64,000 bases of DNA from positions 160,395-224,394 of the forward strand of contig CAZPYM010000001.1 in assembly GCA_964590105.1 (NCBI GenBank), given 5' to 3'. Shown one piece after another: positions 42,325 to 56,510 of this stretch (position 1 is the stretch's first letter; each line of letters starts with the position of its first letter). The translations under genes and the position numbers were made by a program. The notes below the pieces were generated by a model. It did no database searches. It had not been told where the DNA came from and saw nothing but the letters and a program-made list of their open reading frames with translations. This stretch comes from an uncultured Gammaproteobacteria bacterium. GTDB lineage: Bacteria > Patescibacteriota > Patescibacteriia > UBA11705 > JABHMO01.

Positions 42325-44427
42325 TTATTTCGCAAAGTAAAATATGTGATTCGCGCCATTATCAGTTATATACCAGTCGTCGGCGATTTGTTTTGTTTCG
42401 GCAATAATATTTTTCGAGTTGCTCCAATAATCAGCAACTACGAAATATAAATCATTCACCCCGGTCAATTCCATGGCTTGCTCTACAAATTCGCGTCGTG
42501 GTTCCACAAAAACCATTTTTTCATAAAACTGGTAAAGGTTATTTTTAGTGCCATTGGGAAGCGAGTAATAAAAATTACTATTATAATAATGTTTAAACCC
42601 GGCCTCGCGTATCGCGGCCGCGCCGAGCATTTGATTTGCCAGCACAACATAGTTTTGCGCGGCTGCGCCGGCAATCAGCTGAACCGTTTCAATATCGGCG
42701 CTAGTCACATTATATTCCTGCGAGTCTTTGTAATTGTCTTTTATTGGATACGAAAAATACAAACTCATGACTAGGCCGATCGTTAAAATAAAAATGCAGA
42801 ATAGTTTGAACGTCCAGAGTCCTCGTTGACGAAACCCATATTCAAAGAGCTTGTAAAATAAATAAACCACAATCGGTAAAAGAAAATATAGCGCTAGCTC
42901 CAGAATTCGATTTAAATATTGATCGCGATTTTGATTAGTGGCAAATTCAAAGTTTAGAATCGTTTTCGTAAAGACAAAGTTAACAAGCAGAATTGCGCCG
43001 ATAATGACATGTGGCAAAAAGGCCTTTTCTTGCTTTTGATAGAAAACTAACCAAATGCTAAACAGCGCGATGATTAAAAAAATTAATTTATAATTAAATC
43101 CATAAACATAAAACAAGTCTTGAATAAAATTAAATTGTTTATCAAAAATGAAAAAATTAAAATTAAATATCGTTGACGGGCTGGGAATTAAAAGGCTGAC
43201 CTTGAGTCCGTTAATAACCGAGTTCAGCACAAAAAGAGCGGGAAAAACAATGAGACCGGCAATGACCAGCAAAGCTTGAACTCCGCGTTGAATAAGTTTT
43301 TTATTAAATAAATCCCGGCTGATTATAAACAAAACAAAAAGTAGGATTGGAATTCCGAAAAGCGGATGAATGGCGCAGGTGATGACGGACAAAAACAGTA
43401 GAAAAGATCTGGGCATTTCGGAGCGGGGAATAAAACTTAGGAAAATAATAACCAAGCACAAAAGATTGGTCAGCCCCTGTGGCGTAGTATTGATGAAATA
43501 AGTGGCCGGCAGGACAAGCGCGGACAAGCAAGCGGCAAAGGAATATTTTTTTTCAAGTTTTAATCCTTGAGTCAGGCCGGCGTAAACAGAAATCGGAAAA
43601 AATATTGAAAAGCTGATCGGCAGGAGTGCTTTGTTTATCAACTCAACGGAAACTTGCAATAAATTGTGCAAGAAAATAATAATTGAATATTCGCCGATAT
43701 AATAAAACGTTTTTGGCAAAATTATTCCATTGGCCACAATCTCTTTAATGGCGGCCAAATGCAAAAAAGGATCATAACCATAGCCGATTTTGTAAATTAT
43801 TAAAGCAACAGAAGAAATGAGCAGTGTGTGAAGGCAAAGCAGGAAAAGCGAGAAATTCGACCATTTGTTTTTTAGTAAAATAATAATCAGAAGTGCGGTC
43901 CCAACAGTAAAGTAAATAAAAAAATTGTTCGGCACAATATTCCATGGTGAAGAAATTGCATCAGCTGTGCGCGCCAGAAAAAGCTGGCGGAAGTTCAAAG
44001 CAAGCAAAATTAAATAGGCAAGAATAAAAAGTTTCGGCTTCAAGTCAAATATAAATGTTTTAATTGCCACAAGCGTGTTGGCCAGAGAAAGGGAAGAAGG
44101 GGATTTGTGGCCATATAATTCAATTGCTAAAGAGACGGCCAGAAGGCTAATCAAAAAAATGACTGTATTGATCAGATACACATAAAAGCAAATCCATAGT
44201 ATAATAGAATTAATTCCGACAAAAACGAGAAGGCCAAAAGGCACCTGAAACCAGCGTTCCATTTTGGGAAATAAAACTACGCCAAGTCTCTGGCCGTAAA
44301 AACACAAAATAATCGCGCTGATAATTATTCCTAGTAGCGCGTTGTGAATAAAGCTCAAATTTGCTAAAATGATTCCGGCAAATACGAGCGTGCGGATGAT
44401 TTTGACTGCTTTGGTTTGAATGCTCAT
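42325..44427 (-). CDS. Large polytopic membrane protein, possibly a GT-C-type glycosyltransferase or a YfhO-like protein.
   Basis: A 700-aa protein with more than 12 TM helices and a C-terminal soluble domain. No specific motif was recognised. Confidence 0.4.
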   Translation of the reverse strand: MSIQTKAVKIIRTLVFAGIILANLSFIHNALLGIIISAIILCFYGQRLGVVLFPKMERWFQVPFGLLVFVGINSIILWICFYVYLINTVIFLISLLAVSLAIELYGHKSPSSLSLANTLVAIKTFIFDLKPKLFILAYLILLALNFRQLFLARTADAISSPWNIVPNNFFIYFTVGTALLIIILLKNKWSNFSLFLLCLHTLLISSVALIIYKIGYGYDPFLHLAAIKEIVANGIILPKTFYYIGEYSIIIFLHNLLQVSVELINKALLPISFSIFFPISVYAGLTQGLKLEKKYSFAACLSALVLPATYFINTTPQGLTNLLCLVIIFLSFIPRSEMPRSFLLFLSVITCAIHPLFGIPILLFVLFIISRDLFNKKLIQRGVQALLVIAGLIVFPALFVLNSVINGLKVSLLIPSPSTIFNFNFFIFDKQFNFIQDLFYVYGFNYKLIFLIIALFSIWLVFYQKQEKAFLPHVIIGAILLVNFVFTKTILNFEFATNQNRDQYLNRILELALYFLLPIVVYLFYKLFEYGFRQRGLWTFKLFCIFILTIGLVMSLYFSYPIKDNYKDSQEYNVTSADIETVQLIAGAAAQNYVVLANQMLGAAAIREAGFKHYYNSNFYYSLPNGTKNNLYQFYEKMVFVEPRREFVEQAMELTGVNDLYFVVADYWSNSKNIIAETKQIADDWYITDNGANHIFYFAK

Positions 44428-44455
44428 GTTTAAATTCTAGCACTAATTTACAAAA

Positions 44456-44971
44456 ATGAAAATCAGCGAAAAAAATTTTTTATTTACAGTTAAAATATTG
44501 ATTTGGCTTATTTTTGCAATCATAATTGTTTTTTTGGTCTGGCAAAAGGCGGCTCCCGCAGGACAGGTAACATATTTTTGGGATTTTTCAGAAAAGCCGC
44601 GTTTTATAAGCGATTTTTATCCGGTCGGCAGAGTTGCCTTGACGGACGGAATGCAGATTATAAATTCAGAGCCGGTGTATATTGATGTTTATTCGCCGCG
44701 CAGGTTTTCCAAAGCAAAAGTTAAAATAGTTTACCGCAGTCCCGCGCTGGAAACCAAGTTTGGAATAAAACTGAATGTCAATGACTGGGGTTTTTATTTT
44801 GAAAAACTACCGGCCACGGGTGAGCAATTTCAGGAGGCTGATTTGGAATTTAGCTTAGCCAAAGCGCAGCTCATCGGGAACAAGATCAAGTTTTCTTTAG
44901 CCGGCCCGGAAATAGATTCCAGCGTAGAAAAAATTATTTTGGATTCAATCGAAATAAATTTAATCAAATAA
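44456..44971 (+). CDS. Hypothetical membrane-anchored protein.
   Basis: N-terminal TM, 171 aa. Confidence 0.4.
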   Translation: MKISEKNFLFTVKILIWLIFAIIIVFLVWQKAAPAGQVTYFWDFSEKPRFISDFYPVGRVALTDGMQIINSEPVYIDVYSPRRFSKAKVKIVYRSPALETKFGIKLNVNDWGFYFEKLPATGEQFQEADLEFSLAKAQLIGNKIKFSLAGPEIDSSVEKIILDSIEINLIK

Positions 44972-44972
44972 A

Positions 44973-45149
44973 ATGAAAAATATTTTACAATCTTTATTTT
45001 CCAGTTTGTTTATCTTTTGGATCATTCTCGGCGTGCTCGAGCTGGTCATGCCCGGGTTTGCTATTTATTATATAAATTTGAATTGGCTGTTGCTAACTGT
45101 GATTGTAATGGGTTTTGTAAACTTACTAATTTTAGCTGACAAAAAATAG
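44973..45149 (+). CDS. Small membrane protein (58 aa). Not in the ORF track.
   Basis: My manual translation gives MKNILQSLFSSLFIFWIILGVLELVMPGFAIYYINLNWLLLTVIVMGFVNLLILADKK. It starts 2 nt after the upstream stop. Confidence 0.3.
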   Translation: MKNILQSLFSSLFIFWIILGVLELVMPGFAIYYINLNWLLLTVIVMGFVNLLILADKK

Positions 45150-45200
45150 TACTTATGTTACAATATATAAAATAACTAATTTTATTAGAAATTATTTTCT

Positions 45201-47093
45201 TTGAATTATATGGCACATAGAATTACGATGAATACGCAGTCATTGCAGAAAAATTTTCCTGAAGTATACCAGGATTTTTTCGCTAAATGCAATTTTGTAA
45301 CTTCGGCGCCAATTCAGTTTGACTGGTGCGGATCACATGCCTGGAGAATTGGCGGAATTTCAATATATCAGAAGTTGCCAATTAGGACTTATGTTGGCAT
45401 CGAAAAAATAGAAAAGGAAAACACGATTGAAATCGGCGATATGCTGGTTTTTAATCCGTTAGAGCAAACTTTTATTGATTCAACGGAAAGATTTTCCGGC
45501 TGGGATCGCCTACCCGAGATATTGCAACAAATAATCAAAGAGGATTTTCAAGGTCAGGGAGATTTTCCCGGATTTCGATTGCATTTTTTAGACGAGATGT
45601 CAGAATCTCATGGATATTCTGTCGCTGCGGAAACGGCTAATCTAAGTCTTTTGCTCCATCTGTATTTCGGGAAAGTATCTCCGGCCGAAGCGAGTTCAAT
45701 GGTTTTGATTCCGGGTGAAAAGTTTTTTACTAAAGATAGTTTGTTGTCTGAAAAAATGGACGGCATTATAAATATCGGCTGGAAAATGATTGTTTGTTGC
45801 GGTTGGAAAAGCTCTGCGGGGAATACGGTAAAATGTGCTTTTGTTAAATCAAATTATCCTGTGATTTCTTTTACGGAAAAGCGACAAGGAGATATTGAAA
45901 ATTTTGATGGCGCTGGCGCCCCGCTAAATTTGGAAAAAGATCCAGATTATGTATTTAAAATGAAAAGCTGGATTTTTCGTATGGAAAAATTGTTTAATCT
46001 GAATCCGACTGCGTGCTTTCCCCTCGATTTAGCGTTTATATATCCTGGATTTGGAAGATTGTTTGCTGACAGCACTGATTACACGGTCAATTATGTTATC
46101 CCGGCTATTAATGATCTTGCTGATTTTGCAAAAAAAACATTTGGAGAATACCTTGGAAAAGAAAAGACCGATCACGTTCCGGATTTTTTTAGTGAATGTA
46201 ACAAGGGAAAGGATCAATTTTGGCAGCGTTACTTGCAACTCAATTCAATAATCTCTCTCAAATTATTAAAGTCTATTCAGCTACTTTATAAGCAGCGAGC
46301 ATCACAGGAATCTCTCGCGGAGCTGTTTAAAGCAATAAAAGATATTGCTCGTTCCCGCGGTTTGTTTAGCGAGGAACATTCATTAAATCTTCAACATATT
46401 AGACATAAAATAGTGAAAGTCGCAGCAAAAACTGCCGGCGGTACTGATGTGGCAACCAGGTTTTTTAATTATGGGCAATTGGACGGCGGCATAATGGTGG
46501 TGGCGCCATATCAAAAATTTCGACGCGCCTTGCTGGAGGTTATTGAAGATTTGCAAAAAAATTATAATAAGGATATTTGTTTGGATTATGCTTCATGGAT
46601 TGACGGAACGGATTGTGACGCTATCGTCGTGGAACAATGTCTCGAGTCGGGGTTATATTCAAAATATATCCAGCCGAACTCAATTAAATTATTTGATTGG
46701 GAGGCTGGAAGCAGTCATCAGCGAGTGGTTAAGAAAAATGAAGATATTATCAAACAAGATTTTGATTTATTTTTGGATTTAATTGAAAATAAGATTTATA
46801 TCCGCGGAGAAAGCATTTCTTCAAAACAATTGCCCTCGCAAAAAGCAACGGCGGAACTTTTGGAATTTTTGTTAAATCATCCGGGTGAACTTCTGACAAA
46901 CAAACAACTTCCTGAAACCGGTTATTCCAAATACCGAAATGAATTGCAGGGAAAAATAATTACGCCATTGTCAAAACTTTTGAAAGAAAAAACCAAAAAA
47001 GATTTGGGACTAAAAATAACCGGCAAACTGATGAACTTTTTTGTGGAGTTTAATCCACGGAATTTAAAAATCGGAGTTATTGACCGAATATAA
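45201..47093 (+). CDS. Hypothetical protein with a C-terminal OmpR/PhoB-type winged-helix (trans_reg_C-like) domain.
   Basis: The C-terminus ...IYIRGESISSKQLPSQKATAELLEFLLNHPGELLTNKQL resembles the trans_reg_C DNA-binding domain. The N-terminal 400 aa are unassigned (weak GHMP-like pattern). Confidence 0.45.
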   Translation: MNYMAHRITMNTQSLQKNFPEVYQDFFAKCNFVTSAPIQFDWCGSHAWRIGGISIYQKLPIRTYVGIEKIEKENTIEIGDMLVFNPLEQTFIDSTERFSGWDRLPEILQQIIKEDFQGQGDFPGFRLHFLDEMSESHGYSVAAETANLSLLLHLYFGKVSPAEASSMVLIPGEKFFTKDSLLSEKMDGIINIGWKMIVCCGWKSSAGNTVKCAFVKSNYPVISFTEKRQGDIENFDGAGAPLNLEKDPDYVFKMKSWIFRMEKLFNLNPTACFPLDLAFIYPGFGRLFADSTDYTVNYVIPAINDLADFAKKTFGEYLGKEKTDHVPDFFSECNKGKDQFWQRYLQLNSIISLKLLKSIQLLYKQRASQESLAELFKAIKDIARSRGLFSEEHSLNLQHIRHKIVKVAAKTAGGTDVATRFFNYGQLDGGIMVVAPYQKFRRALLEVIEDLQKNYNKDICLDYASWIDGTDCDAIVVEQCLESGLYSKYIQPNSIKLFDWEAGSSHQRVVKKNEDIIKQDFDLFLDLIENKIYIRGESISSKQLPSQKATAELLEFLLNHPGELLTNKQLPETGYSKYRNELQGKIITPLSKLLKEKTKKDLGLKITGKLMNFFVEFNPRNLKIGVIDRI

Positions 47094-47115
47094 AGTTAGA
47101 TAAAAAAGATTGCCT

Positions 47116-48174
47116 TTAATCGGACAATCTTTTTGTTTTAGGAAAATAGCCAAGAAGTTTTTTGTAAATCCATGAGCAGAACCAGGAAACGGCAATGCTC
47201 AAAATCGTCGAAATAATAAATACCAGAATAAATTTAGCATAAAAATTGATTGGCGCGGTTTTTAGCTTGTAAAAAAATGCCTGGACGATTGGGAAATGAA
47301 TCAGGAATATCCACAAGCTGATTTTACCCAACCGGCAAATAAAATTGAATATAAAAGTTTGTTTTGTAAATAAGTTTTTAAAATAAAACAAAATAATAAG
47401 AATAACCGGCCCGAAAAATAGTCTATGGTTAAAGTAACCGGACGGTTGGATAAAGAAAATTAATAAATATAGGAAAATACCTGCGAGCCACCAGACCAGC
47501 TTGATTTTCTGACGGTCAAAACGAATGAAAAAATTCTGGTGTTTGGTCCCGTAAACAAAGAAAAATAAAAATGGAAAAAACAGAGGAATGTCATAGACGT
47601 AACACAAGCCTGGAATGTAGTGACTAATTAGAGAAACAGCAAAACTAATGAAAAGCAGTGAGCGATTATTTTTGACGGCAAGAAGTAATGGGTAAATCAG
47701 ATAGAATTGGATCAGAACAATAATAAAATAATAGGGAACAAGCGTATTGCCGGAAATTATCAGGTAGAGAAAGTCAGCCGGCGCTTTGCCACTCGCCGAC
47801 AATATCATCAAACTGACAAATAAGTACGGAATTAAAATCCTGACAATTTTGCGCCAATAAAACGTTTTCCAATTCGGAATGTTTTGTTGTAAAAGAATCC
47901 CTGAACAAATGAAAAAAACCGGGACTGCAAACCGGCTGACATTATTGATGAAAAATGAAAATGTTGAATGTTCGGGAAAATAATAAACAAAAAAATATTC
48001 AACGTGGATCAGGATGACCGCCAGGATGGCCAGGCCTTTTATAAAATCAAAATAATTTTGCCGTTCTCCCGGGCGTTCCACCGGCTTCTGTTCTGGCGAA
48101 CTAAAAAAGTGGCGCCGTAAATAGGGGACAAGCAGGATGAAAAGGCTTAAAATTGGCAGGGATAAGTTTTCCAT
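47116..48174 (-). CDS. Acyltransferase family 3 (OatA-like) membrane protein.
   Basis: DFIKGLAILAVILIHV at the N-terminus and a polytopic membrane topology. Confidence 0.7.
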   Translation of the reverse strand: MENLSLPILSLFILLVPYLRRHFFSSPEQKPVERPGERQNYFDFIKGLAILAVILIHVEYFFVYYFPEHSTFSFFINNVSRFAVPVFFICSGILLQQNIPNWKTFYWRKIVRILIPYLFVSLMILSASGKAPADFLYLIISGNTLVPYYFIIVLIQFYLIYPLLLAVKNNRSLLFISFAVSLISHYIPGLCYVYDIPLFFPFLFFFVYGTKHQNFFIRFDRQKIKLVWWLAGIFLYLLIFFIQPSGYFNHRLFFGPVILIILFYFKNLFTKQTFIFNFICRLGKISLWIFLIHFPIVQAFFYKLKTAPINFYAKFILVFIISTILSIAVSWFCSWIYKKLLGYFPKTKRLSD

Positions 48175-48358
48175 ACCTATATTTTACTTGATTTTGATTA
48201 AATTTGAAATAAAGAGGATGCAAAGATGCTTAATTTAGCGTTTTTTTGTTTTCATAAGAATTTCAGTATATTTCATTTGCCAAAAAAATTATAATTAAGT
48301 CAGAAAGAATAAACAGGGGCTTGAAAAGCCAGATGATTTCCGTAAATAATGTATAGAT

Positions 48359-48508
48359 ATGGTAGTCAGAAAAAACAAAAACAAACCTCAAAGGCGGGTA
48401 TTAAGAATTTTTGCCTATAGCAAGGATGGGGAAGTGGCGGAGGTGGTGGAGCATGTATATGAGGGCGATGATTTGGTGCAAAAGAGGATTATAGACAAAG
48501 AGCAGTAA
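48359..48508 (+). CDS. Small ORF (49 aa), hypothetical. Not in the ORF track.
   Basis: My manual translation gives MVVRKNKNKPQRRVLRIFAYSKDGEVAEVVEHVYEGDDLVQKRIIDKEQ. It is flanked by two copies of an 18-nt motif. Confidence 0.25.
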   Translation: MVVRKNKNKPQRRVLRIFAYSKDGEVAEVVEHVYEGDDLVQKRIIDKEQ

Positions 48509-48599
48509 ATTTTTTATAAAAATTTCAGTATCTTTCATAAATCTTGACGACTAAAATGCAAGTGACAATAGTTAATATCGTTAACCTGGAGGTGGTAGC

Positions 48600-48806
48600 A
48601 TGGCGAATTTCACGGTAGTAAAAAAGAATGGTAGCAAAGAGAAGGTCGAGGCTGACATGGTGCAATGGACTGGTGGTGGTGCTGGTTTCAGAAATTATGG
48701 GGATATCCATAGGCATTACCGAAAGGAAGTTTATGGACGTGACCTCGACCACGTGGAAGATAATAATGGCAATCGTATCGCGTGCGGTCCAGCTCGTGGA
48801 GAATAA
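48600..48806 (+). CDS. High-GC island small protein 1 (68 aa), unknown.
   Basis: Strong SD GGAGGTGG 4 nt before the ATG. A downstream hairpin GAGGACAGA...TCTGTCCTC follows. The local GC is far above the flanks. Confidence 0.45.
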   Translation: MANFTVVKKNGSKEKVEADMVQWTGGGAGFRNYGDIHRHYRKEVYGRDLDHVEDNNGNRIACGPARGE

Positions 48807-48916
48807 TGAAATTATGTGAGGACAGACAGCCAAGTCTCTCTGTCCTCGCCTTTATGGCGAATCCAAACAATAATGTTTGGGTTTGGCTAGAGGCTCATTA
48901 CATTGGAGGGATTGCT

Positions 48917-49123
48917 ATGTACAACGATTATCTGCCCCCGTTGTTGGAGAAACCCATTACCATGTTTGATCGAGAAGCTGACAGTATCCGCTTTCGGGCG
49001 GGTCAGCTGACTGCGAACGAGCTGGCTTTCGATGTGCGCCGGCGCGCTGGTGCCTTGACCATGACGGAAGAGGCTCAGCAGATCATGGCGAACGTCAATC
49101 GCATCATGCCACTCAGTTTTTGA
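48917..49123 (+). CDS. High-GC island small protein 2 (68 aa). Paralog of protein 5.
   Basis: SD GGAGGG before ATG 48917. It shares ...A.AIR...G.LTA.E.A.D..RRAG......EEAQ.IMANVNRI.PL with 49839..50087. Confidence 0.5.
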   Translation: MYNDYLPPLLEKPITMFDREADSIRFRAGQLTANELAFDVRRRAGALTMTEEAQQIMANVNRIMPLSF

Positions 49124-49164
49124 AAGGGCGAATAAATCTCATTGACTTTTATGGAGGTGCAAAC

Positions 49165-49404
49165 ATGAACAACAATGATTGGTTTTACAAACCCACGTAT
49201 TATGGCGCGTCGCATTCAGCGCCAACAACGGAAAAGTGGTTTGATACCCCGCCAATTGGTGGAGGAGAGCCACATTTTCCTTGTGTGAGATCGCCTGAAC
49301 TTCCGTCGCTTGCAGCTCCTGCAGTAGATTTCGGTTATATTCCGCCGGGCGTAAAGCTTCTGCCTTATGACCCGACCCCGTATTCGGACTTCATGGATTG
49401 GTAG
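49165..49404 (+). CDS. High-GC island small protein 3 (79 aa), Pro/Tyr-rich, ends in DW.
   Basis: SD GGAGGTG before the ATG. It is followed by the hairpin GCGAGAACA...TGTTCTCGC. Confidence 0.45.
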   Translation: MNNNDWFYKPTYYGASHSAPTTEKWFDTPPIGGGEPHFPCVRSPELPSLAAPAVDFGYIPPGVKLLPYDPTPYSDFMDW

Positions 49405-49516
49405 TCTTTCTAATGATGCGAGAACAGATTGATTCTAATTTGTTCTCGCCTTTATGGCGAATCTAAACAATGATGTTTGGATCCGGCTAGAGGCACCTTA
49501 CAAAAGGAGAACGAAA

Positions 49517-49711
49517 ATGGCACAGAATGATCAGGGTTGGAACCAGCTGGTGCGGGATCCGCAGAGTTTCATGACCGACGTGCTCGACACCGGAGATGGG
49601 GTCAATGTGCATGACACCTTCCGTTTCAACACTGATGGCGACGCCATCGGTCGGTCGCACACCACGGTCGAGGTCGACGGACAGTTCAAGCGTCTGAACC
49701 ACGACTGGTAA
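49517..49711 (+). CDS. High-GC island small protein 4 (64 aa), ends in DW.
   Basis: SD AAGGAGAA before the ATG. It is followed by the hairpin GGCAGCCAtcatTGGCTGCC. Confidence 0.45.
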   Translation: MAQNDQGWNQLVRDPQSFMTDVLDTGDGVNVHDTFRFNTDGDAIGRSHTTVEVDGQFKRLNHDW

Positions 49712-49838
49712 GATGAACAAGGGCAGCCATCATTGGCTGCCCGTCTATCCTTGCCAATTACTCAATATGTAATTTGTAATGATAGGCGTTGTTCTTTTCA
49801 ATTATCTACAAATTAGTTTTACCGAAGGGAGGAATAGC

Positions 49839-50087
49839 ATGAGCAGATGGCAATATGAATTTTCATCAGGGAGAACTATTCTCGTTGAAGAGATTTGGGA
49901 ATCTTTGCCGGAAGTGCCTGCAAGCATGTTTGACAAGCAAGCGTCTGCCATTCGTCGTATCACAGGCGACCTGACTGCAGACGAATTTGCCCATGACATT
50001 CTGCGCAGAGCAGGCGTGCGTTCCAGGGCCGAGGAAGCCCAGGATATCATGGCCAACGTCAATCGAATCCTGCCGCTCGGGCATTAA
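49839..50087 (+). CDS. High-GC island small protein 5 (82 aa). Paralog of protein 2.
   Basis: SD GGGAGGAA before the ATG. Its C-terminus EEAQDIMANVNRILPLGH matches EEAQQIMANVNRIMPLSF of protein 2. Confidence 0.5.
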   Translation: MSRWQYEFSSGRTILVEEIWESLPEVPASMFDKQASAIRRITGDLTADEFAHDILRRAGVRSRAEEAQDIMANVNRILPLGH

Positions 50088-50217
50088 GTAGAGAACTCAG
50101 AAAAAGTCCATTCGCAAAGTGAGGGAAGCAGGTCATTCTTTTTCTCTCCTCTATAGTGAACCGGAACAAATAGTTTGGATTCACTTTGAGAAATAGTTCT
50201 AACAAAGGAGGATCGTC

Positions 50218-50478
50218 ATGGACATTGACCGACAGATGTTTCTGCAAGGGCCGTGCGATGGCTGCCCGTTGCGTATGCACGGTGAGCCGCAATCGCAGTG
50301 CCGATTCTGCGATCGCAATCCGTATCAGCAGAAACCGTGGTGGCCGGTACCGGTGTCGCCACCGCCGATTTTCGAGCCGTATCCGTCGCCGTTCCCGCCG
50401 CTGCCGCCTTACCCGCCGATTTTCGATCCGTATCCTCCGCCGTTCCCGCCGCCATTCTACTTCGATCCGCGCTGCTAG
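50218..50478 (+). CDS. High-GC island small Cys/Pro-rich protein 6 (86 aa).
   Basis: SD AAAGGAGGA before the ATG. It has N-terminal CDGCP...CRFCD and a P/F/Y-rich repeat tail (PIFEPYPSPFPPLPPYPPIFDPYPPPFPPPFYFDP). It is followed by the terminator GGGGCAAACgcattgtGTTTGCCCC + T-run. Confidence 0.5.
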   Translation: MDIDRQMFLQGPCDGCPLRMHGEPQSQCRFCDRNPYQQKPWWPVPVSPPPIFEPYPSPFPPLPPYPPIFDPYPPPFPPPFYFDPRC

Positions 50479-50601
50479 CCCTTGACTGGCAGAAACGGGG
50501 CAAACGCATTGTGTTTGCCCCATATTTTTTTATTTTAAAATTTTTTGCTATAATACATCTACAAGACAAATAAAAATAAAAACCTATGATGACATCGTTT
50601 T

Positions 50602-50973
50602 TTGCTGGCAAAATTGTTCGGTTTATTTTTCTTTATCATTGGCGTCTTGTTGTTAGCTAGGAGACGTTACTTTGAGGCAATTGCCAAGGGATTTGCCAAG
50701 CAAGATCTTTTGCTTTATTTTGCCGGACTGCTAAATCTTATCTTGGGATTACTGCTCGTTTTAAATCATAATGTTTGGCAGGATTCTTGGCGTATAGTAA
50801 TATCAGTTGTTGGCTGGTTGGTTTTGCTGAAGGGTTTGTTTATATTATTTTTCAGCGAAATCGTAGCAAAATTGCTTAAATGGATATGCAAATACAATAA
50901 TTATTTTTATTTCGCGGGCGCGATTGCAATATTGCTCGGCTTGTATTTTTTGTATCAAGGCTTTTGGATCTAA
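50602..50973 (+). CDS. Small membrane protein, hypothetical. Only a TTG start is available.
   Basis: A 123-aa, 4-TM ORF with no in-frame ATG, hence low confidence. Confidence 0.3.
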   Translation: MLAKLFGLFFFIIGVLLLARRRYFEAIAKGFAKQDLLLYFAGLLNLILGLLLVLNHNVWQDSWRIVISVVGWLVLLKGLFILFFSEIVAKLLKWICKYNNYFYFAGAIAILLGLYFLYQGFWI

Positions 50974-51090
50974 AAAATTCTTTAAATAATAGAATTCCGA
51001 ATTTGGGTTCTATTATTTTGATTAAAATCAATTCCCGGGCGGCTGTTTATAATTAAATAAAAGTTTGCTATAATAATATCAGATATACAT

Positions 51091-52419
51091 ATGAACAAGG
51101 ACGGACAACTCCCCTTGGCGGACAATAAAAAAGAGGTTAAGGTGCTTAAAAAGCGAATTTTTGGCAGTTTTTTTGCCACGCAAAAAAGGCAGAAAAAAGT
51201 TTACGAGCAGATCAAGGAAAGAGCGGCCGGTGATTTTGATTTTTATATAATGTCTCTTTTTGCCGGCATTATAATTACGCTTGGTATAATTATTGATTCG
51301 GCGGCTGTGGTTATCGGCGGCATGCTGATCGCGCCTCTGGTCTGGCCGATCCTGGCCATGGCTCTCGGCGTTTGCATGGGACGGCCGAGATTATTGCAAA
51401 CAGCGCTCGGGACAATACTGAAGAGTACTCTAGTAATTCTGCTGGTGGCTATTTTACTCGGCTTGATTGTGCCTGATTTGGTAATTGAAAATAAAGAATT
51501 TTTACAGAGAACCAGTCCGACACTGTTTGAACTTTTGATCGGTCTGGCTGCCGGATTTGTCGGGGCATTTATAATTGCTTATCCGAAAATAGGTTCGGCG
51601 ATTGCCGGCGTAGTCATGGCCGCGGCGATTGTGCCGCCAATTGCGACAATTGGGTTATCAATAGGCCGCGGCGATTTTGACGCGGCGGCAGGAGCGCTCT
51701 TGTTGTTCTTGTCGAATTTGATTGCTATTACTTTTGCCGCTACAATTTTATTTTTAATTTCAAATTTTTCTCCGACCAGTGAAATCGGACATGAAAAAAG
51801 CAAAAGCGGATTCCGTTGGTCTTTGCTTTTTCTAGTGATAATTTTCATCCCTCTAATTCTAACCACCAAGCAAACAGCAGAAGCAGTGAAAAATAATAAA
51901 ATTATCAAGGGCGTGGTGCAGTCATCGCTCGAGCAAGTTTCAGTTTCCGAGCTTCAAATATCTGAGCAAAACGGTATTCTGACGGCCTCTCTGACACTCA
52001 ATGCCAATGAAAGCATAACCAAAGATCAAATAAGCGCCATGGAAAATATTTTATTAAAGCAACTCGGCAAGCCGGTGATTTTGAAAATAAAAATTTTGCC
52101 GGTTGTTGAAGCGGGCGATGATGTTTTTAGCAAATGGAAAAAAATTATGGATATTGAAAGCGCGCTTGAACAAGAAAAACAAAAACAATTGGAACAGGAA
52201 AAACTTGATGAAGATCTAGTGAAGTGCCCGGTAGCGGTTAACGGAATAAAAATAATTAGAGCGTATCCAATCTCAATCGGTTGTCCTGTTTGTCCGAAAG
52301 TTATTTCTTGCGGCGACGGACGAGAATTTCCGGGACAATCATTCAATGAAGCTCTGGGCGAGTGCGAAGATTTATTGTTTGCCGGAGGCGCTCCGTGTTT
52401 TCAGGAAGCCAGCGAATAG
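51091..52419 (+). CDS. DUF389-family integral membrane protein with a C-terminal soluble domain.
   Basis: Contains FYIMSLFAGIIITLGIIIDSAAVVIGGMLIAPLVWPI, the DUF389 conserved hydrophobic region. Confidence 0.55.
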   Translation: MNKDGQLPLADNKKEVKVLKKRIFGSFFATQKRQKKVYEQIKERAAGDFDFYIMSLFAGIIITLGIIIDSAAVVIGGMLIAPLVWPILAMALGVCMGRPRLLQTALGTILKSTLVILLVAILLGLIVPDLVIENKEFLQRTSPTLFELLIGLAAGFVGAFIIAYPKIGSAIAGVVMAAAIVPPIATIGLSIGRGDFDAAAGALLLFLSNLIAITFAATILFLISNFSPTSEIGHEKSKSGFRWSLLFLVIIFIPLILTTKQTAEAVKNNKIIKGVVQSSLEQVSVSELQISEQNGILTASLTLNANESITKDQISAMENILLKQLGKPVILKIKILPVVEAGDDVFSKWKKIMDIESALEQEKQKQLEQEKLDEDLVKCPVAVNGIKIIRAYPISIGCPVCPKVISCGDGREFPGQSFNEALGECEDLLFAGGAPCFQEASE

Positions 52420-52692
52420 AAAGAAAATTACAAATTACAAATAACGAATTACAAGCAAATCACAAATTACAAATATGGAATTGATAATTTTGACGGCATA
52501 GTCGTCAAGGTGATATTGATTGCTTCGTAATTGAGAATTGGGACAAATTTAAATTAAGTTCAAGTAGGTTAATATGCTTTGTCTTTTTTGATGAGCGCTT
52601 GACGGTTTGTGATTTGTGTTTTGTAATTTTACTTTATTGTTTGTAATTTGTTTGTGTCTTATAATTTGTATTTTGTTATTTATTATTATTTT

Positions 52693-53361
52693 ATGCACAA
52701 CATCACCATCCCTCTGATTGTCGGATCGGCGGCAATTGATTCCATTAATCCATGCGCTTTCGCGGTTTTGATTTTTTTGATTTTATATTTAATAGCCGTG
52801 AAAAATAAAAATAAAATGCTGGCGATTGGGTTGGTTTATATTTTTATTGTGTTTCTGGTTTATTTTTTGGCCGGAATCGGATTACTTAGTTTTATCCAAA
52901 GCGTTCATGTTACAAAATATTTCTATTATTTTACAGCGGTTTTGGCCATAATTCTTGGTTTAATTAATTTGAAAGATGTGTTTTGGAGCGGCAATGGAAT
53001 GACGCTGGCTATCCCGGATTCAAAAAAAGCCCTGATCCAAAAATATATTAAAAAAGCGACTTTGCCGGCCGCAATTGTTCTCGGCGTGCTCGTTGCTTTG
53101 TTTGAACTGCCCTGCACCGGAGGAGTTTATTTGGCTGTTTTGTCATTATTGGCTGATAAAAACACCTGGTTGCAGGCAGTGCTTTATTTGTTGCTGTATA
53201 ATTTAATTTTTGTTCTGCCTTTACTGATTATTTTGCTGGCCGTTTACTATGGCCTGCCGCCTGAAAAAGTCGAAGCCTGGCGAAAAGAAAAAAAGAAATG
53301 GATGCGGCTGGTTATTGGTTTGGTTTTAATCGGACTTGGAATTATTATGCTTTTTATATAA
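52693..53361 (+). CDS. Membrane protein with TM cysteines (possibly CcdA/DsbD-like or a metal transporter). Tentative.
   Basis: Contains SINPCAF and ELPCTGG in separate TM helices. I chose the start at the first ATG; the ORF-track start is a TTG. Confidence 0.4.
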   Translation: MHNITIPLIVGSAAIDSINPCAFAVLIFLILYLIAVKNKNKMLAIGLVYIFIVFLVYFLAGIGLLSFIQSVHVTKYFYYFTAVLAIILGLINLKDVFWSGNGMTLAIPDSKKALIQKYIKKATLPAAIVLGVLVALFELPCTGGVYLAVLSLLADKNTWLQAVLYLLLYNLIFVLPLLIILLAVYYGLPPEKVEAWRKEKKKWMRLVIGLVLIGLGIIMLFI

Positions 53362-53512
53362 ACGATGAATTGTTCTGATTAACCTAATTCACCTAATTAT
53401 TCTAAATAAGGTCTAAGCTCCAAATCCTAAATTCAGAAAATAGAATAATTAAGTCATTGGAATTTAGTTAGGTTAATTAGAATAATTAAGACAATTAGAA
53501 TAATTTTATTAT

Positions 53513-53764
53513 ATGTCAGAAAAACAAATTGGACGCATTACTCACTATTTTGACAACCTGGGCGTGGCGGTGCTGAATTTGGAAGGCAAGCTAAAAGTGG
53601 GCGACAAGATTAGAATTCAGGGAGGCGAGGTCGAGTTTGAGCAAGTGATTGAATCTATGCAGATTGATCGAGAGCCAATTGACAAAGCCAAAAAGGGCGA
53701 TGATGTCGGCATGAAGGTAAAGGAAAGAGTAAGGCAGGGCTATCGGGTTTTTTTAGTAAAATAA
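53513..53764 (+). CDS. Small beta-barrel protein (EF-Tu domain 2-like). Tentative.
   Basis: An 83-aa protein with a GRITHYF...VAVLNLEGKLKVGDKIRI pattern. Confidence 0.35.
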   Translation: MSEKQIGRITHYFDNLGVAVLNLEGKLKVGDKIRIQGGEVEFEQVIESMQIDREPIDKAKKGDDVGMKVKERVRQGYRVFLVK

Positions 53765-53934
53765 AACCTGATGCAAGTTCTTGGTTGGTTCAAATTAAGT
53801 AAAAACAGCAAAAGGTCAGCTTGAAAAACCGGCAGGATACTGTTATAATTATTACGGATTAGTTTAAGCTTAGATAACATAGTTTGCCCGTCAAATCAAT
53901 GGTTAGCGAGCAATTAGCTTTATTTTAATTATTT

Positions 53935-55539
53935 ATGTCAAAGGTTACCGATAGGTTAATAAAAAATTTCCTTGAAGCTGAGTACAGAACGCCTATAGAT
54001 GAAATTCTAAAAGTTAATGCTGTGATCGGCAAGGCGGCCTTTGTTTACGAAAAAGTGCGCAATGCTATTGATTATCAGGAAGAGCATTTGATCCGCAAAA
54101 GCGCGATTTACCGAATTTTAAAAAGAAAACTATTGCTAGAAAAGGTTATTTTGGAAAATTATTTATTGGATAAATATCACCATGAAAATCTGCCAAAGCA
54201 ATTATTGCAGGAATTGATTCGCGGCGGCTATATTAGAGATAAAGTCCCAGTGCAAATGGTCAAGGTTGTAGACGACATTATCCAAAAATACAATGTTCTC
54301 CTGGCCAAGATTAAAGAGTCAGAAGGTAAATTGACCAGAAAACAATGGAAATATTTTTTGGAAATGTGTTCGGTTGAAATAGAATTGGCCGTTATTCCCC
54401 CGAAAAAAGAAAAAGCTCTGATCAATGCCATGTTTTCGGTTTACAATCCTAGAATAAAGTTCAAAAATCAGGATATTACTGATCAGGAAAAAGAACTGCA
54501 GGCATATTTATGCTGTCACCGCGTGTTGTTTAAATGGGATGAGGCAATGCTCCGAACATTGTTACTCGGGCTTTATTATCCTCAATGGAAAAAAGCGGAT
54601 GAAGCTACTATCGGAAAGATCGCCAATAATATTGGCAAGATTGTGGCGGAAATAGACAAGCAAATTGCTCATCCCCTGAAAAATCAGGTGCAAAAAGTTT
54701 TGCAGAAAAAGGCGATTATATTTTGGATAATTCAGGATATTTTGGAAAGTGAACCCAAAAAGGCAAAACAGATTTTCGGTGATGCCGAGCTTTTGGAAGA
54801 AGAAATAAAAAAACAAGTACATAAACGTTACAAGGGCGTGCGGGTAAAGCTGCGGCGCGGTGTGGTTAGAAGTATTATTTACGTGTTTTTTACTAAAATG
54901 GTTTTAGCTTTGGCGCTCGAATTTCCTATGGATTGGTATTTGAACGGCGCGATTAATTATGTTTCAGTTGCAATAAATATTTTATTCCCGCCATTTTTGA
55001 TGTTTGTAGTCGCCATACTTATCCGCATGCCGAAGAAGGAAAACACCACGAAGATTGTGAATGAAATTAGTCAGATCGCGCTAAAGCAAAATGAGGGAAA
55101 GATGTATGAGCTAAAGCCTTTTCATGGGCGGAGCAAAATTTCGCGTTATATTTTTAATTTGATCTACGGTTTAACCTTTCTTTTTTCGATAATGATGATA
55201 TTTACTGTGCTGTACAAGTGGGGTTTTAATTTTTTTAGCAGTTTAATATTTGTTCTGTTTCTGACTTTGGTGAGCTTTTTTGGCATGCGCATCCGCCGGC
55301 CGGTTCAGGATTTGCTGGCTGTTGAAAGACGCGAGAGCATCATCGGTTCCATTGTTGATTTTTTCGCCCTGCCTTTTGTCAGCATGGGGCGCTGGATGTC
55401 GGGTAAGTTTTCCAAGATTAATGTTCTGGCCATGTTTTTGGATTTAATTATTGAAGCGCCGTTTAAATTGCTGATTGAGGTTTTTGAGGATTTATTTGGT
55501 TTTATCCGGGAGAAAAAAGAGGAGGTGATGGATGATTAG
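53935..55539 (+). CDS. Hypothetical protein with a C-terminal polytopic membrane domain.
   Basis: 534 aa with multiple TM helices in the C-terminal half. Confidence 0.5.
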   Translation: MSKVTDRLIKNFLEAEYRTPIDEILKVNAVIGKAAFVYEKVRNAIDYQEEHLIRKSAIYRILKRKLLLEKVILENYLLDKYHHENLPKQLLQELIRGGYIRDKVPVQMVKVVDDIIQKYNVLLAKIKESEGKLTRKQWKYFLEMCSVEIELAVIPPKKEKALINAMFSVYNPRIKFKNQDITDQEKELQAYLCCHRVLFKWDEAMLRTLLLGLYYPQWKKADEATIGKIANNIGKIVAEIDKQIAHPLKNQVQKVLQKKAIIFWIIQDILESEPKKAKQIFGDAELLEEEIKKQVHKRYKGVRVKLRRGVVRSIIYVFFTKMVLALALEFPMDWYLNGAINYVSVAINILFPPFLMFVVAILIRMPKKENTTKIVNEISQIALKQNEGKMYELKPFHGRSKISRYIFNLIYGLTFLFSIMMIFTVLYKWGFNFFSSLIFVLFLTLVSFFGMRIRRPVQDLLAVERRESIIGSIVDFFALPFVSMGRWMSGKFSKINVLAMFLDLIIEAPFKLLIEVFEDLFGFIREKKEEVMDD

Positions 55540-55699
55540 ACGCATTACACATAACACGGAGCACGGAACACGAGACATAAAACATGGAATATCGTTATAC
55601 AATATTGGCTTTAAGTTTTTGCGAGATGTAATTCAATTATTTCGGCTGTTATTAAGTGAGACAAACAAAAAATACTCTTCAATTTGGAGTATTTATTTT

Positions 55700-55745
55700 T
55701 AAAATAGGAATTAGTTGGGTGGACGGCGGGTGAGTAATCACCTCG
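55700..55745. terminator. Bidirectional terminator hairpin.
   Basis: GGGTGGACGGCGGGTGAgtaaTCACCTCGCCGCCCACCC, a ~17-bp stem with 2 mismatches, sits between convergent genes. Confidence 0.5.
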
Positions 55746-55762
55746 CCGCCCACCCGGCCTTG

Positions 55763-56113
55763 TTAGAGCGTGCGAATAACGGCACGCCCATACTTTCTGT
55801 CGCAGTGAGTGATATTCAGGATGTGCCATCCCTGATCCTGTGTGAACTGGACTTTGAACATGCGCGGGTGGAACATTCCTTGCCAGCGCTCAACAAAGGG
55901 ATACCGAGCAATCCAGTGCTCGAATTCCTCAATTCCGCCTTGCCGGAGGATGCCCAGGGCACAAATTGCGACATCAGTTCTGAAGCCACCTTTTTCATCG
56001 GGATACGACGAGAGCCGGTTGCAGAGCTTCGTTGCCAACATCCCGACCATGGGCGGGAACGCGGTGGCGACGAAAATCATCAATGAACGAAGTATGTCTG
56101 AAAGTACTTGCAT
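55763..56113 (-). CDS. Hypothetical protein (116 aa) in a locally GC-elevated segment.
   Basis: I chose the start at the ATG with AAGGAGAAAAC just upstream on the minus strand. The overlapping plus-strand ORFs are rejected. Confidence 0.45.
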   Translation of the reverse strand: MQVLSDILRSLMIFVATAFPPMVGMLATKLCNRLSSYPDEKGGFRTDVAICALGILRQGGIEEFEHWIARYPFVERWQGMFHPRMFKVQFTQDQGWHILNITHCDRKYGRAVIRTL

Positions 56114-56359
56114 GTTTTCTCCTTCTTGTTTGTGATTCAAATCGAACTATATGGTGTCTGGATCTAGAACTGAATATAATATCATAAAAATTAGGGCATG
56201 TCAATAAGACCACATCAAATTTGGCTAAAATAAGTCACGATAACGTAAAATTGCTTAAATAATTGGAAAAAGTATAAAGCCTCTGCGTCGATTTATTGAT
56301 ATTATTTTATGTAATCATAATATTTAAATGTCACTTCTTGCTTTTCACAGAGTTAAAAT

Positions 56360-56388: not shown

Positions 56389-56396
56389 AATTTTGT

Positions 56397-56504: not shown

Positions 56505-56510
56505 AATTGT

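What the first reader, a model, noticed from the sequence alone, without database searches (positions are those of the whole stretch)
48590..50530. Compositionally foreign high-GC island of six tiny genes (64-86 aa) with paralogs, strong SDs, and individual hairpins and a shared operator. Undescribed small-protein cassette.
GC rises from about 36% in the flanks to about 60% over 1.9 kb (one 60-nt stretch counted at 62%). All six ORFs have canonical GGAGG-type SDs, unlike most host genes here. Each is followed by its own stem-loop. Proteins 2 and 5 are paralogs (shared ...EEAQ.IMANVNRI.PL.. C-terminus and A.AIR...G.LTA.E.A.D..RRAG core). Proteins 3 and 4 both end in -DW and begin M-x-x-ND-W/Q. 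Protein 6 is Cys- and Pro-rich with PxFxPYP repeats. Protein 1 contains a W-T-G tripeptide. No transposase, integrase or larger enzyme is present. The composition and translation signals suggest recent acquisition from a high-GC Gram-positive-like donor. The content looks like a family of small secreted or effector-like or toxin/antitoxin-like peptides with no known homologs I can name.
Basis: seen in the sequence. Interest (0 to 1): 0.75.

Follow-up and report, generated by a model that had tools for sequence, protein, structure and literature searches.

The report
Shuffled small-gene array with hairpin spacers
An uncultured low-GC bacterium carries an operon of six or seven tiny genes of unknown function, separated by a conserved two-hairpin RNA element, and related bacteria hold different tiny genes between the same element at the same chromosomal site, so it may be an undescribed kind of gene-cassette locus.

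Summary
The island is real but overstated. GC is 50.1% against 39.3% for the rest of the window, not 60%. About half of the excess comes from amino-acid composition. Only g2, g4 and g6 have non-host synonymous composition. All six + strand ORFs have GGAGG-type SDs, while 13 of 14 neighbouring host genes have none and look leaderless. g1 and the g2/g5 family are under purifying selection. No small protein matches Pfam, NCBIfam, PHROGs, PADLOC, phage or plasmid data.

The "shared operator" is the tip of a 79-nt module of two abutting hairpins. It has strong covariation, folds better on the sense strand, is absent from Rfam, and occurs only inside the island.

A genome whose flanking proteins are 36-53% identical has an array at the same site with different small genes and the same module (90% nt identity). 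Homology between versions breaks at module edges. A conserved promoter, TTTCA-N5-TTTCA-N14-TAnnAT, precedes the array. g2's closest relative lies in a 60%-GC contig.

I read it as a lineage-specific, hypervariable small-protein cassette operon punctuated by a new structured RNA element, not a single recent foreign insertion and not an integron. The proteins' function is unknown.

The parts
45210..47093 (+). Conserved upstream neighbour, a 627-aa protein of unknown function. Candidate regulator, not established.
   Evidence: The ortholog sits directly before the array in L015. It is 36% identical overall, but the C-terminal ~115 aa are ~85% identical. Trans_reg_C scores only E 0.047, below cut-off. 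PDB DrrD scores E 0.56. The single-sequence AF2 model has pLDDT 62 and its best Foldseek hits are Roadblock-like at E 0.07, not wHTH.
48261..48295 (+). Promoter-like site P1: TTTCAGTATATTTCA-N14-TATAAT, upstream of the 49-aa ORF.
   Evidence: This composite motif has only two matches in the 64 kb, against 0.00 expected. It aligns with the motif in L015.
48359..48508 (+). 49-aa ORF with no SD and lower GC. Possibly the first gene of the unit.
   Evidence: Against strain L013, 10 of 15 differences fall at codon position 3. It is called as a gene in several assemblies.
48523..48557 (+). Promoter-like site P2: TTTCAGTATCTTTCA-N14-TAAAAT, upstream of g1.
   Evidence: The motif is kept in strain L013 while the rest of the spacer diverges. 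L015 has a one-mismatch version with TATAAT at the same spacing.
48600..48806 (+). g1, 68 aa, hydrophilic and Gly-rich.
   Evidence: SD GGAGGTG. pN/pS is 0.13 against L005, with 30 of 40 differences at position 3. All 8 differences against L013 are synonymous. Codon GC3 is host-like. No homologs beyond its own 90% cluster.
48817..48895 (+). Two-hairpin module, copy 1 (hairpin A 48817-48847, hairpin B 48848-48895).
   Evidence: CM R1 99.9 bits. MFE -42.5 kcal/mol, z -4.9, against -33.8 for the antisense strand. Covariation.
48917..49123 (+). g2, 68 aa, predicted three helices, paralog of g5.
49165..49404 (+). g3, 79 aa, rich in Pro and aromatic residues, acidic. It shares a cassette with g2, with no module between them.
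   Evidence: SD GGAGGTG. Host-like GC3. No family or homolog found. Coding status rests on the SD and ORF only.
49417..49495 (+). Two-hairpin module, copy 2.
   Evidence: CM R1 84.6 bits. MFE -40.2 kcal/mol, z -7.0, against -29.6 for the antisense strand.
49517..49711 (+). g4, 64 aa, acidic.
   Evidence: SD AAGGAG. GC3 is 0.75, above all 288 host 70-codon windows. No homologs.
49721..49787 (+). Module-like pair of abutting hairpins with the same architecture but a different sequence.
   Evidence: The fold of 49712-49838 gives hairpin A directly followed by a 45-nt bulged hairpin, z -6.2. The sequence-based CM does not find it.
49839..50087 (+). g5, 82 aa, paralog of g2.
   Evidence: SD GGGAGG. 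GC3 0.52.
50120..50193 (+). Degenerate two-hairpin module, copy 4.
   Evidence: CM R1 28.9 bits, E 1e-4. It is weakly structured on its own, z -0.6.
50218..50478 (+). g6, 86 aa, with an N-terminal CxxC...CxxC and a Pro-rich repeat tail.
   Evidence: SD AAGGAGG. GC3 0.72. Tandem 51-nt repeat. It resembles the Pro-rich ORF upstream of g1' in L006, E 3e-5, low complexity. The start of the alternative minus-strand ORF lies in the terminator loop.
50497..50531 (+). Intrinsic terminator closing the array.
   Evidence: An 11-bp stem with 7 GC pairs, followed by a T run. The arrays in L005 and L015 also end in hairpin plus T run, while internal A hairpins lack one.

Best explanation
This is a chromosomal, lineage-specific, hypervariable operon of small-protein genes (a 'cassette array') in an uncultured low-GC bacterium, probably of the Patescibacteria/CPR type, whose own genes are mostly leaderless.

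Transcription and translation:
- The array appears to be transcribed from promoters in which a TTTCA-N5-TTTCA direct repeat sits 14 nt upstream of the -10 box. This suggests dependence on an activator. The conservation is shown; the mechanism is inferred.
- Transcription probably reads through internal hairpins that lack a U tract and stops at one canonical terminator after g6 (inferred).
- Each small ORF is translated from its own strong Shine-Dalgarno site (shown in the sequence).

The module:
- Between cassettes lies a ~79-nt module of two abutting hairpins, A and B. Covariation and sense-strand-specific G.U pairs indicate that it folds on the sense strand, i.e. in the mRNA.
- I infer that it punctuates the polycistronic RNA. 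It would be a processing and stability element that leaves each cistron with a protective 3' hairpin A and 5' hairpin B and a free SD.
- Being the most conserved DNA of the locus, it would also serve as portable homology at which cassettes are gained, lost and swapped. Breakpoints at module edges are shown; the recombination mechanism is inferred.

The cargo:
- Origins are mixed. g1 and g3 are compositionally host-like. g2, g4 and g6 are not, and g2's nearest relative is in a 60%-GC organism, which implies horizontal capture.
- The proteins are hydrophilic, lack signal peptides, and are Zn-knuckle-like, Pro-rich or small helical. Their function is not known. My guess is stoichiometric binders or modulators used in dealings with a partner organism or mobile elements.
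For: Real coding genes:
- g1 pN/pS is 0.13, and all 8 differences in strain L013 are synonymous.
- The 66-aa cassette compared between L005 and L015 has pN/pS 0.19.
- The g2/g5/P0008 family is recovered by a whole-library HMMER search.

SD against leaderless host.

The module is structured and specific to this locus:
- RNAalifold predicts two abutting hairpins with compensatory pairs.
- Over 9 copies, 94% of cells are paired and 17 of 29 pairs show changes on both sides. No shuffle of 500 reaches this. The covariation score is 0.445 against at most 0.143 for slid controls.
- The sense strand is 9-10 kcal/mol more stable than the antisense strand.
- The CM finds copies only inside the arrays across 96 kb searched.
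- No Rfam match at E<=1.

Same site, different cargo:
- The L015/L016/L017 array lies between orthologs of the 627-aa protein and the 123-aa membrane protein.
- Flank identities are 36-53% aa, while the module is 90% nt identical.

Breakpoints:
- The window and L005 share g1 plus the module and diverge exactly at the next SD.
- L005 and L015 share the module plus the 66-aa gene, with homology starting exactly at hairpin A.

Other points:
- Promoter motif.
- A terminator occurs only at array ends.
- Mixed composition. g2 is 69% identical to P0008, whose gene has 64% GC and 76% GC3.
Against: - Only three array versions were recovered (the window type, L005/L006, and L015-17), so 'hypervariable' rests on few genomes.
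- No transcript data exist. The operon structure, read-through and processing are all inferred.
- The covariation alignment of 9 copies was fitted to the model, which inflates pairing (caveat).
- The module could act as single-stranded DNA rather than RNA.
- g3, g4 and g6 have no comparators, so their coding status rests on the SD, ORF length and composition alone.
- Remote homologs of g3, g4 and g6 were never properly searched, because the concatenated query failed.
- The host phylum rests on one 50%-identity hit to a Saccharibacteria MAG.
- The proposed regulator was not confirmed.
- Nothing indicates what the proteins do.
Confidence: 0.55

Rival explanations
1. An ordinary small operon of lineage-specific ORFan genes. 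The hairpins are just leaky terminators or stabilisers duplicated along with neighbouring sequence, and the differences between genomes reflect ordinary gene gain and loss at a flexible spot. No cassette logic is involved.
For: - Intercistronic stem-loops and flexible islets are common (general knowledge).
- Only three versions were seen.
- The g5-g6 copy of the module is degenerate, and the g2-g3 spacer has none.
Against: - The module is 90% identical between genomes whose flanking proteins are 36-53% identical, and it is better conserved than synonymous sites of adjacent genes (pS 0.6-0.7).
- Homology breakpoints coincide with module edges in two independent comparisons.
- Compensatory changes maintain both hairpins.
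Confidence: 0.2
2. One reading: one recent horizontal acquisition of a high-GC island from a high-GC Gram-positive-like donor.
For: - The GC excess and SD usage are unlike the host.
- g2, g4 and g6 have GC3 of 0.66-0.75, at or beyond the host range.
- The only outside relative of g2/g5 sits in a 60%-GC contig.
Against: - An array with the same promoter motif and module occupies the same site in a distant relative.
- g1 and g3 match host codon composition. About half the GC excess is explained by amino-acid content: expected GC is 0.46-0.53 with host codons.
- The module is not found in the high-GC contig.
- No mobility genes are present.
Confidence: 0.12
3. An anti-defence or mobile-element-derived islet, like acr/aca loci or phage morons. 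It would hold small diverse inhibitor proteins that turn over quickly, with g2/g5 as the helical regulator.
For: - The genes are small, diverse ORFans with rapid turnover.
- g2 is a three-helix protein.
- The g2 homolog P0008 lies beside a PD-(D/E)xK NucC-like nuclease gene.
Against: - There are no phage or plasmid genes nearby.
- tblastn finds nothing in 50,697 phage and 72,556 plasmid records.
- Scans of IMG/VR contigs for g1, g3, g4 and the g2/g5 family found no relatives; g6 was not scanned.
- No PHROG hits.
- No HTH fold match above noise.
Confidence: 0.08
4. An integron-type array (CALIN), in which the hairpins are attC sites recombined by a tyrosine integrase encoded elsewhere.
For: Conceptually similar: promoterless small ORFs, each followed by a structured element, with variable content downstream of a common promoter.
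Against: - No RYYYAAC...GTTRRRY pair occurs on either strand of the island, and neither core motif occurs in any module.
- The element is two separate hairpins, not one bulged hairpin.
- It folds better on the sense (top) strand, whereas attC sites recombine as the bottom strand (the attC property is from established knowledge).
- No integrase lies within +/-10 kb or among 20 other ORFs.
Confidence: 0.05

Closest known systems
Integron gene-cassette arrays and CALINs (attC-delimited cassettes)
   Same: Short, mostly promoterless ORFs follow a common promoter. Each unit ends in a conserved-structure element. Content differs between relatives, with exchange points at the element. Cassette composition is heterogeneous.
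   Different: There are no attC core sites and no integrase. The junction is two abutting hairpins favoured on the sense strand. Every ORF has its own strong SD. The host is a CPR-like bacterium. The exchange mechanism is unknown.
Intercistronic RNA stem-loops: REP/BIME elements in E. coli operons and RNase III sites between phage T7 early genes (from established knowledge)
   Same: Stable hairpins lie between cistrons of a polycistronic mRNA. There they act as 3' stabilisers or processing sites and set differential expression. That is the working model proposed here.
   Different: REP/BIME elements are dispersed genome-wide, while this module is confined to one locus. It has no sequence or Rfam relation to them. 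No processing has been shown here.
Phage and prophage anti-defence (acr-aca) loci and moron clusters
   Same: Clusters of small, fast-turning-over ORFan genes with strong expression signals.
   Different: This locus has no mobile-element context and no phage homologs. It occupies a conserved chromosomal position flanked by orthologous host genes.
Activator-dependent promoters with direct-repeat boxes replacing the -35 (pho-box type; from established knowledge)
   Same: Two 5-nt direct repeats one helical turn apart sit at a fixed 14-nt distance from a good -10 box, with no -35. The arrangement is conserved across strains and genera.
   Different: No response regulator has been identified. The neighbouring protein's conserved C-terminal domain does not reach the Trans_reg_C threshold or a wHTH fold match.

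Membership tests
Integron cassette array / CALIN | attC sites with R'' (RYYYAAC) and R' (GTTRRRY) cores at the base of one imperfect hairpin | tested here: not met
   No such pair 40-150 nt apart occurs on either strand of 48500-50600, and neither core occurs in any of the four modules.
Integron cassette array / CALIN | Recombinogenic fold on the bottom strand | tested here: not met
   The sense strand folds at -42.5 and -40.2 kcal/mol, against -33.8 and -29.6 for the antisense strand. G.U pairs exist only on the sense strand.
Integron cassette array / CALIN | IntI tyrosine recombinase adjacent (integron). It may be absent in a CALIN. | tested here: not met
   No Phage_integrase domain among called genes within +/-10 kb or among 20 further ORFs. 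The rest of the genome was not available.
Dispersed extragenic repeats (REP/BIME, MITE, BOX-like) | Many copies scattered in intergenic regions across the genome | tested here: not met
   CM R1 finds copies only inside the arrays in 96.6 kb (window, L004, L005, L006, L014, L015). The best hit outside an array scores 10.7 bits, E 2.4. Whole genomes were not searched.
Known structured RNA families (Rfam 15) | A covariance-model match | tested here: not met
   No hit at the gathering score in the island and none at E<=1 in 48200-50700.
Intrinsic terminator (for hairpin A) | A GC-rich stem followed by a U run | tested here: not met
   Internal A hairpins are followed by CCTTTATGG or similar. Only the array-terminal hairpins carry T runs.
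Type II toxin-antitoxin pair | A recognisable toxin domain plus a DNA-binding antitoxin in a two-gene operon | tested here: not met
   No Pfam, NCBIfam or PADLOC family at E<=0.1, apart from a 13.6-bit sub-threshold Unstab_antitox match on g5.
Anti-CRISPR / anti-defence locus | Located in a phage, prophage or plasmid, with an associated HTH (aca) regulator | tested here: not met
RiPP precursor cluster | Adjacent modifying enzyme and transporter, with a shared leader peptide | tested here: not met
   Neighbours are an Acyl_transf_3 membrane protein, DUF389 and unknown proteins. The apparent shared N-terminus 'MANxNN.VW' lies inside hairpin B. It lacks an ATG in one copy, is closed by a stop in L015, and varies non-synonymously.
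OmpR/PhoB-type winged-helix regulator (for the 627-aa neighbour) | A Trans_reg_C domain or wHTH fold | tested here: inconclusive
   PF00486 scores E 0.047, 14.2 bits against a cut-off of 26.2. PDB 1kgs scores E 0.56. The AF2 single-sequence model has pLDDT 62, and its best Foldseek hits are Roadblock/LC7-like at E 0.07.

The most novel reading that the evidence does not exclude
A gene-cassette system specific to CPR-like bacteria and unrelated to integrons. An ~80-nt two-hairpin element would both punctuate the operon mRNA and act as the exchange site for small-protein genes. This would let tiny-genome bacteria stockpile and shuffle small effector or modulator proteins, some captured from high-GC organisms, under one signal-responsive promoter.
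Probability: 0.25. Interest if true: 0.8.

Novelty: new variant of a known kind. Interest (0 to 1): 0.62.

Why it matters
If the cassette reading holds, modular exchange of small genes at a fixed chromosomal platform exists outside integrons. It would exist in a lineage with minimal genomes, where each retained locus is likely to matter.

The locus also supplies a new, well-supported structured RNA motif that is absent from Rfam. It adds several small-protein families with no homologs among billions of sequences. It also gives a clear case of SD-led genes embedded in a leaderless genome.

It offers testable handles on how uncultured episymbiont-like bacteria acquire and express accessory small proteins: a covariance model, a promoter motif and defined cassette boundaries.

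Tried and rejected
1. Family scans of all six proteins, the L005, L015 and L014 relatives, and the flanks against Pfam, NCBIfam, PHROGs and PADLOC gave nothing significant.
2. The 5.8-billion-protein search found only self hits for g5 and g1. A concatenated query of g1, g3, g4 and the L005 proteins returned nothing, not even self hits. That hack failed and wasted a search, so g3, g4 and g6 have had no proper remote-homolog search.
3. A full HMMER search with the g2/g5 profile found only P0008 plus three repetitive false positives.
4. GTDB species representatives hold no g2/g5 relative. The DUF389 neighbour gave only a 50%-identity Saccharibacteria MAG with no synteny.
5. Viral contigs hold no relatives of g1, g3, g4 or g2/g5, and no copy of the module pattern.
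6. tblastn against phages and plasmids gave nothing.
8. The idea that the 627-aa neighbour ends in an OmpR-type wHTH was not confirmed.
9. I rejected the reading of the 62-nt repeat as a conserved N-terminal extension or leader peptide (MANxNNxVW). The ATG is missing in L005 copy b, a stop follows in L015, there is no SD, and 5 of 7 differences between the window copies fall at codon positions 1 or 2.
10. The attC reading was rejected.
11. Literature searches for comparable loci found nothing relevant.
Full report

The stretch 48590-50530 has 50.1% GC against 39.3% for the rest of the window. It is the richest 1.9-kb stretch of the 64 kb, and the next best elsewhere is 47.6%. In 300-nt windows it reads 0.42-0.57, with flanks at 0.33-0.38.

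Six + strand ORFs are present. After correcting four starts by one base they are:

| Gene | Coordinates | Length |
|---|---|---|
| g1 | 48600-48806 | 68 aa |
| g2 | 48917-49123 | 68 aa |
| g3 | 49165-49404 | 79 aa |
| g4 | 49517-49711 | 64 aa |
| g5 | 49839-50087 | 82 aa |
| g6 | 50218-50478 | 86 aa |

Each has GGAGG or AGGAG 6-7 nt before its ATG. Of 14 called host genes around the island, 13 have no SD. Most of those carry a TAnnnT box about 6 nt before the ATG, so they look leaderless. The contrast in translation signals is therefore real and striking.

Five of the six genes are followed by hairpins. The 42-nt g2-g3 spacer has none.

g2 and g5 are paralogs, 59% identical over 58 aa with E 8e-21. 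The shared ends of g3 and g4 are not backed by any detectable similarity. g6 has 27 Pro and 5 Cys, with an in-frame 51-nt tandem duplication.

The island is not an assembly artefact. Contigs from at least seven independent assemblies (ENA, JGI, Logan) match the window at 100% across the left junction and the interior. A related genome has an array at the same site (see section 5).

**2. Are the ORFs genes?**

- g1 differs from the L005 version at 40 positions, 30 of them third codon positions (pN/pS 0.13).
- In the closer strain L013, all 8 differences in g1 are synonymous, while the spacer upstream has diverged heavily.
- A 66-aa cassette shared by L005 and L015 gives pN/pS 0.19.
- The g2/g5 family has a third member, P0008.
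- g3, g4 and g6 have no comparators. Their status rests on SD, ORF and composition.
- For g6, gene callers chose a 97-aa minus-strand ORF. Its ATG lies in the loop of the terminator hairpin. A similar Pro-rich repeat ORF precedes g1' on the same strand in L006. I therefore prefer the + strand.

**3. What are the proteins?**

Nothing recognisable. No Pfam, NCBIfam, PHROG or PADLOC family reaches significance. g1 and g5 have no relatives in a 5.8-billion-protein collection beyond their own clusters. A full HMMER scan of 1.84 billion representatives with the g2/g5 profile finds one true relative, P0008. There are no phage, plasmid or viral-contig relatives.

All the proteins are hydrophilic with no hydrophobic segment, and several are acidic. 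g2 is predicted as three helices (pLDDT 69), with no fold match.

The other array versions encode equally odd proteins: two 67-aa DnaJ-like CxxCxGxG proteins, further Cys-rich and Pro-rich proteins, and others.

**4. The "shared operator" is a structured two-hairpin module.**

The 62-nt repeat is part of a 79-nt unit. Hairpin A has the form GAGGACAGACAG-N6-CTGTCTGTCCTC. It is immediately followed by a 47-nt bulged hairpin B, RCCUUUAUGGCGAAUCYAAACA-N4-UGUUUGGRUYYGGCWAGAGGY. B ends 8-20 nt before the next SD.

- RNAalifold recovers both hairpins, with compensatory pairs such as G-C to A-U at the base of B.
- A covariance model built from five copies finds four more diverged copies, all intergenic within the arrays. 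It finds none elsewhere in 96 kb.
- Over nine copies, 94% of cells pair and 17 of 29 pairs show double changes. No shuffle of 500 reaches this, and the covariation score of 0.445 compares with at most 0.143 for slid controls. The caveat is that this alignment was fitted to the model.
- Several pairs are G.U on the sense strand. The sense strand folds 9-10 kcal/mol better than the antisense strand, and antisense CM scores are far lower. This points to RNA, or top-strand ssDNA.
- The g4-g5 spacer has the same A-then-B architecture with an unrelated sequence (z -6.2).
- Rfam has no match.
- The in-frame ATG inside hairpin B, which reads "MANPNNNVW...", is not a conserved start. It is absent in one copy, followed by a stop in L015, has no SD, and varies non-synonymously.

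**5. The locus is a platform with exchangeable content.**

A pattern scan of JGI metagenomes for the hairpin B core retrieved L015, L016 and L017, which are one organism. There the array lies between orthologs of the window's 700-aa membrane protein, 171-aa protein and 627-aa protein on one side and the 123-aa membrane protein on the other. These flanking proteins are 53%, 47%, 36% and 41% identical to their window counterparts.

The small genes in that array are different, but the module is 90% identical at the nucleotide level. A third version (L005/L006) has g1', the 66-aa gene also seen in L015, a 120-aa gene and a Cys/Pro-rich gene.

Homology between versions starts or stops at module edges:
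- The window and L005 share g1 plus the module and diverge exactly at the next SD.
- L005 and L015 share the module plus the 66-aa gene, with homology beginning at the first base of hairpin A.

Units can hold two genes, as with g2+g3 here and c2+c3 in L015. Arrays end in canonical hairpin-plus-T-run terminators, whereas internal A hairpins lack T runs.

**6. Promoter.**

TTTCAGTATnTTTCA-N14-TAnnAT occurs exactly twice in the window, against 0.00 expected. One copy lies before a 49-aa ORF (48261-48295) and one before g1 (48523-48557). The motif survives in strain L013 although the surrounding spacer has changed. A one-mismatch version with TATAAT at the same spacing precedes the L015 array.

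Two direct repeats one helical turn apart, taking the place of a -35, suggest an activator-dependent promoter. This is an inference from established promoter biology.

The adjacent 627-aa protein has a far better conserved C-terminal ~115 aa than the rest of its length (85% against about 30%). Its resemblance to OmpR-type DNA-binding domains is sub-threshold, and a low-confidence model does not support it. The regulator remains unidentified.

**7. How foreign is it?**

With host codon usage, the amino-acid content of the island genes alone predicts 46-53% GC, against a host gene mean of 40%. Roughly half the excess is therefore compositional at the protein level.

- g1 and g3 have exactly the expected GC3.
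- g2 (0.66), g4 (0.75) and g6 (0.72) lie at or beyond the maximum of 288 host 70-codon windows.
- g5 is intermediate.
- g2 is closer to P0008 (69%) than to its paralog g5 (59%). The P0008 gene has 64% GC and sits in a 60%-GC contig, beside a PD-(D/E)xK nuclease gene.

Horizontal capture of some cassettes is therefore likely. The platform, promoter and module belong to the low-GC lineage.

**8. Interpretation.**

The best reading (confidence about 0.55) is a lineage-specific, inducible operon that serves as a platform for exchangeable small-protein cassettes, punctuated by a new structured RNA module.

Shown:
- the genes are real for g1, g2/g5 and the 66-aa family
- the module's structure and its restriction to this locus
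- the syntenic platform with different cargo
- breakpoints at module edges
- the conserved promoter
- the mixed composition

Inferred:
- polycistronic transcription
- the module's role as a processing and stability element
- its use as recombination homology
- activator control

Protein function is unknown. I can only guess at small binding or modulator proteins relevant to a partner organism or to mobile elements.

Rivals:
- An ordinary flexible operon with duplicated spacers (0.2).
- A single recent high-GC acquisition (0.12).
- An anti-defence-type islet (0.08).
- An integron or CALIN (0.05). This is rejected on the absence of attC cores, the strand of folding and the lack of an integrase.

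**9. Novelty and score.**

The components (proteins, RNA motif, promoter box) are undescribed in the libraries searched. A literature search found nothing comparable. The overall kind, a flexible small-gene array with structured junctions, has precedents in integrons and REP-punctuated operons. I therefore rate it a new variant of a known kind. I give about 25% to it being a distinct cassette system.

Interest is 0.62. The structural and comparative evidence is solid, but only three versions are known, there are no expression data, and no function has been identified.

Noticed in passing
window 38853-57458 (starts of called genes): Host genes are almost all SD-less. A TAnnnT box sits about 6 nt before the ATG, so this looks like a predominantly leaderless genome. 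One exception is a 56-aa ORF at 55532-55702, which has AGGAGGTG and overlaps the end of the preceding gene.
   Followed up: partly
window 37140-37400: An isolated SD-led (GGAGG-6-ATG), GC-rich (52%) ORF of 86 aa, very basic, followed by a terminator-like hairpin. It sits just after the RarA-like gene. It is compositionally like the island genes but has no module.
   Followed up: partly
window 55700-56150: A GC-rich (~54%) stretch upstream of tRNA-Asn (56511-56585) with only overlapping, unconvincing ORFs on both strands. There is no Rfam match at E<=1. It may be a structured RNA or a decayed gene.
   Followed up: partly
window 40628-40730: A SAM-I riboswitch (66 bits) immediately upstream of the S-adenosylmethionine synthetase gene. 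This is an ordinary arrangement.
   Followed up: no
window 7540-12809: A probable restriction or defence cluster: an EcoRI-type adenine methyltransferase (E 3e-142), a GmrSD_N+HNH nuclease, and an unannotated 1094-aa protein.
   Followed up: no
window 17423-17947: A local GC peak (57%) that encodes a 174-aa protein with Gly-rich repeats, a CxxC...CxxC zinc-ribbon-like motif and a Lys-rich tail.
   Followed up: no
window 47116-48174 (-): An Acyl_transf_3 membrane acyltransferase lies between the 627-aa gene and the array in the window. It is absent at that position in L015, so the region just upstream of the array is also variable.
   Followed up: partly
window 48861, 48911, 49070, 49181, 50078 (contig ends of L009, L011, L012, L008, L010): Several independent short-read assemblies break inside the island, at or near the module or the g2/g5 repeat. 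This may reflect strain-level heterogeneity of the array within the sampled populations.
   Followed up: no
L015 10618-11499: Next to the array in the related genome lies a 293-aa protein with a LIM-type zinc-finger domain and a DA1-like metallopeptidase motif, both domains typical of eukaryotes. g6 and the L006 ORF carry FPPP/PPxW-type proline motifs.
   Followed up: no
L015 10-3966: Four tandem paralogous membrane-protein genes (160-371 aa) lie upstream of the syntenic block in the related genome.
   Followed up: no
L014 2231-2578: In the 60%-GC contig, the only outside homolog of g2/g5 lies two small genes upstream of a PD-(D/E)xK NucC-like nuclease gene (PADLOC E 2e-15).
   Followed up: partly
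window 29458-31887: An 809-aa protein that appears to fuse two ATP-grasp modules. The C-terminal half is D-Ala-D-Ala ligase-like and the N-terminal half resembles carbamoyl-phosphate synthase.
   Followed up: no
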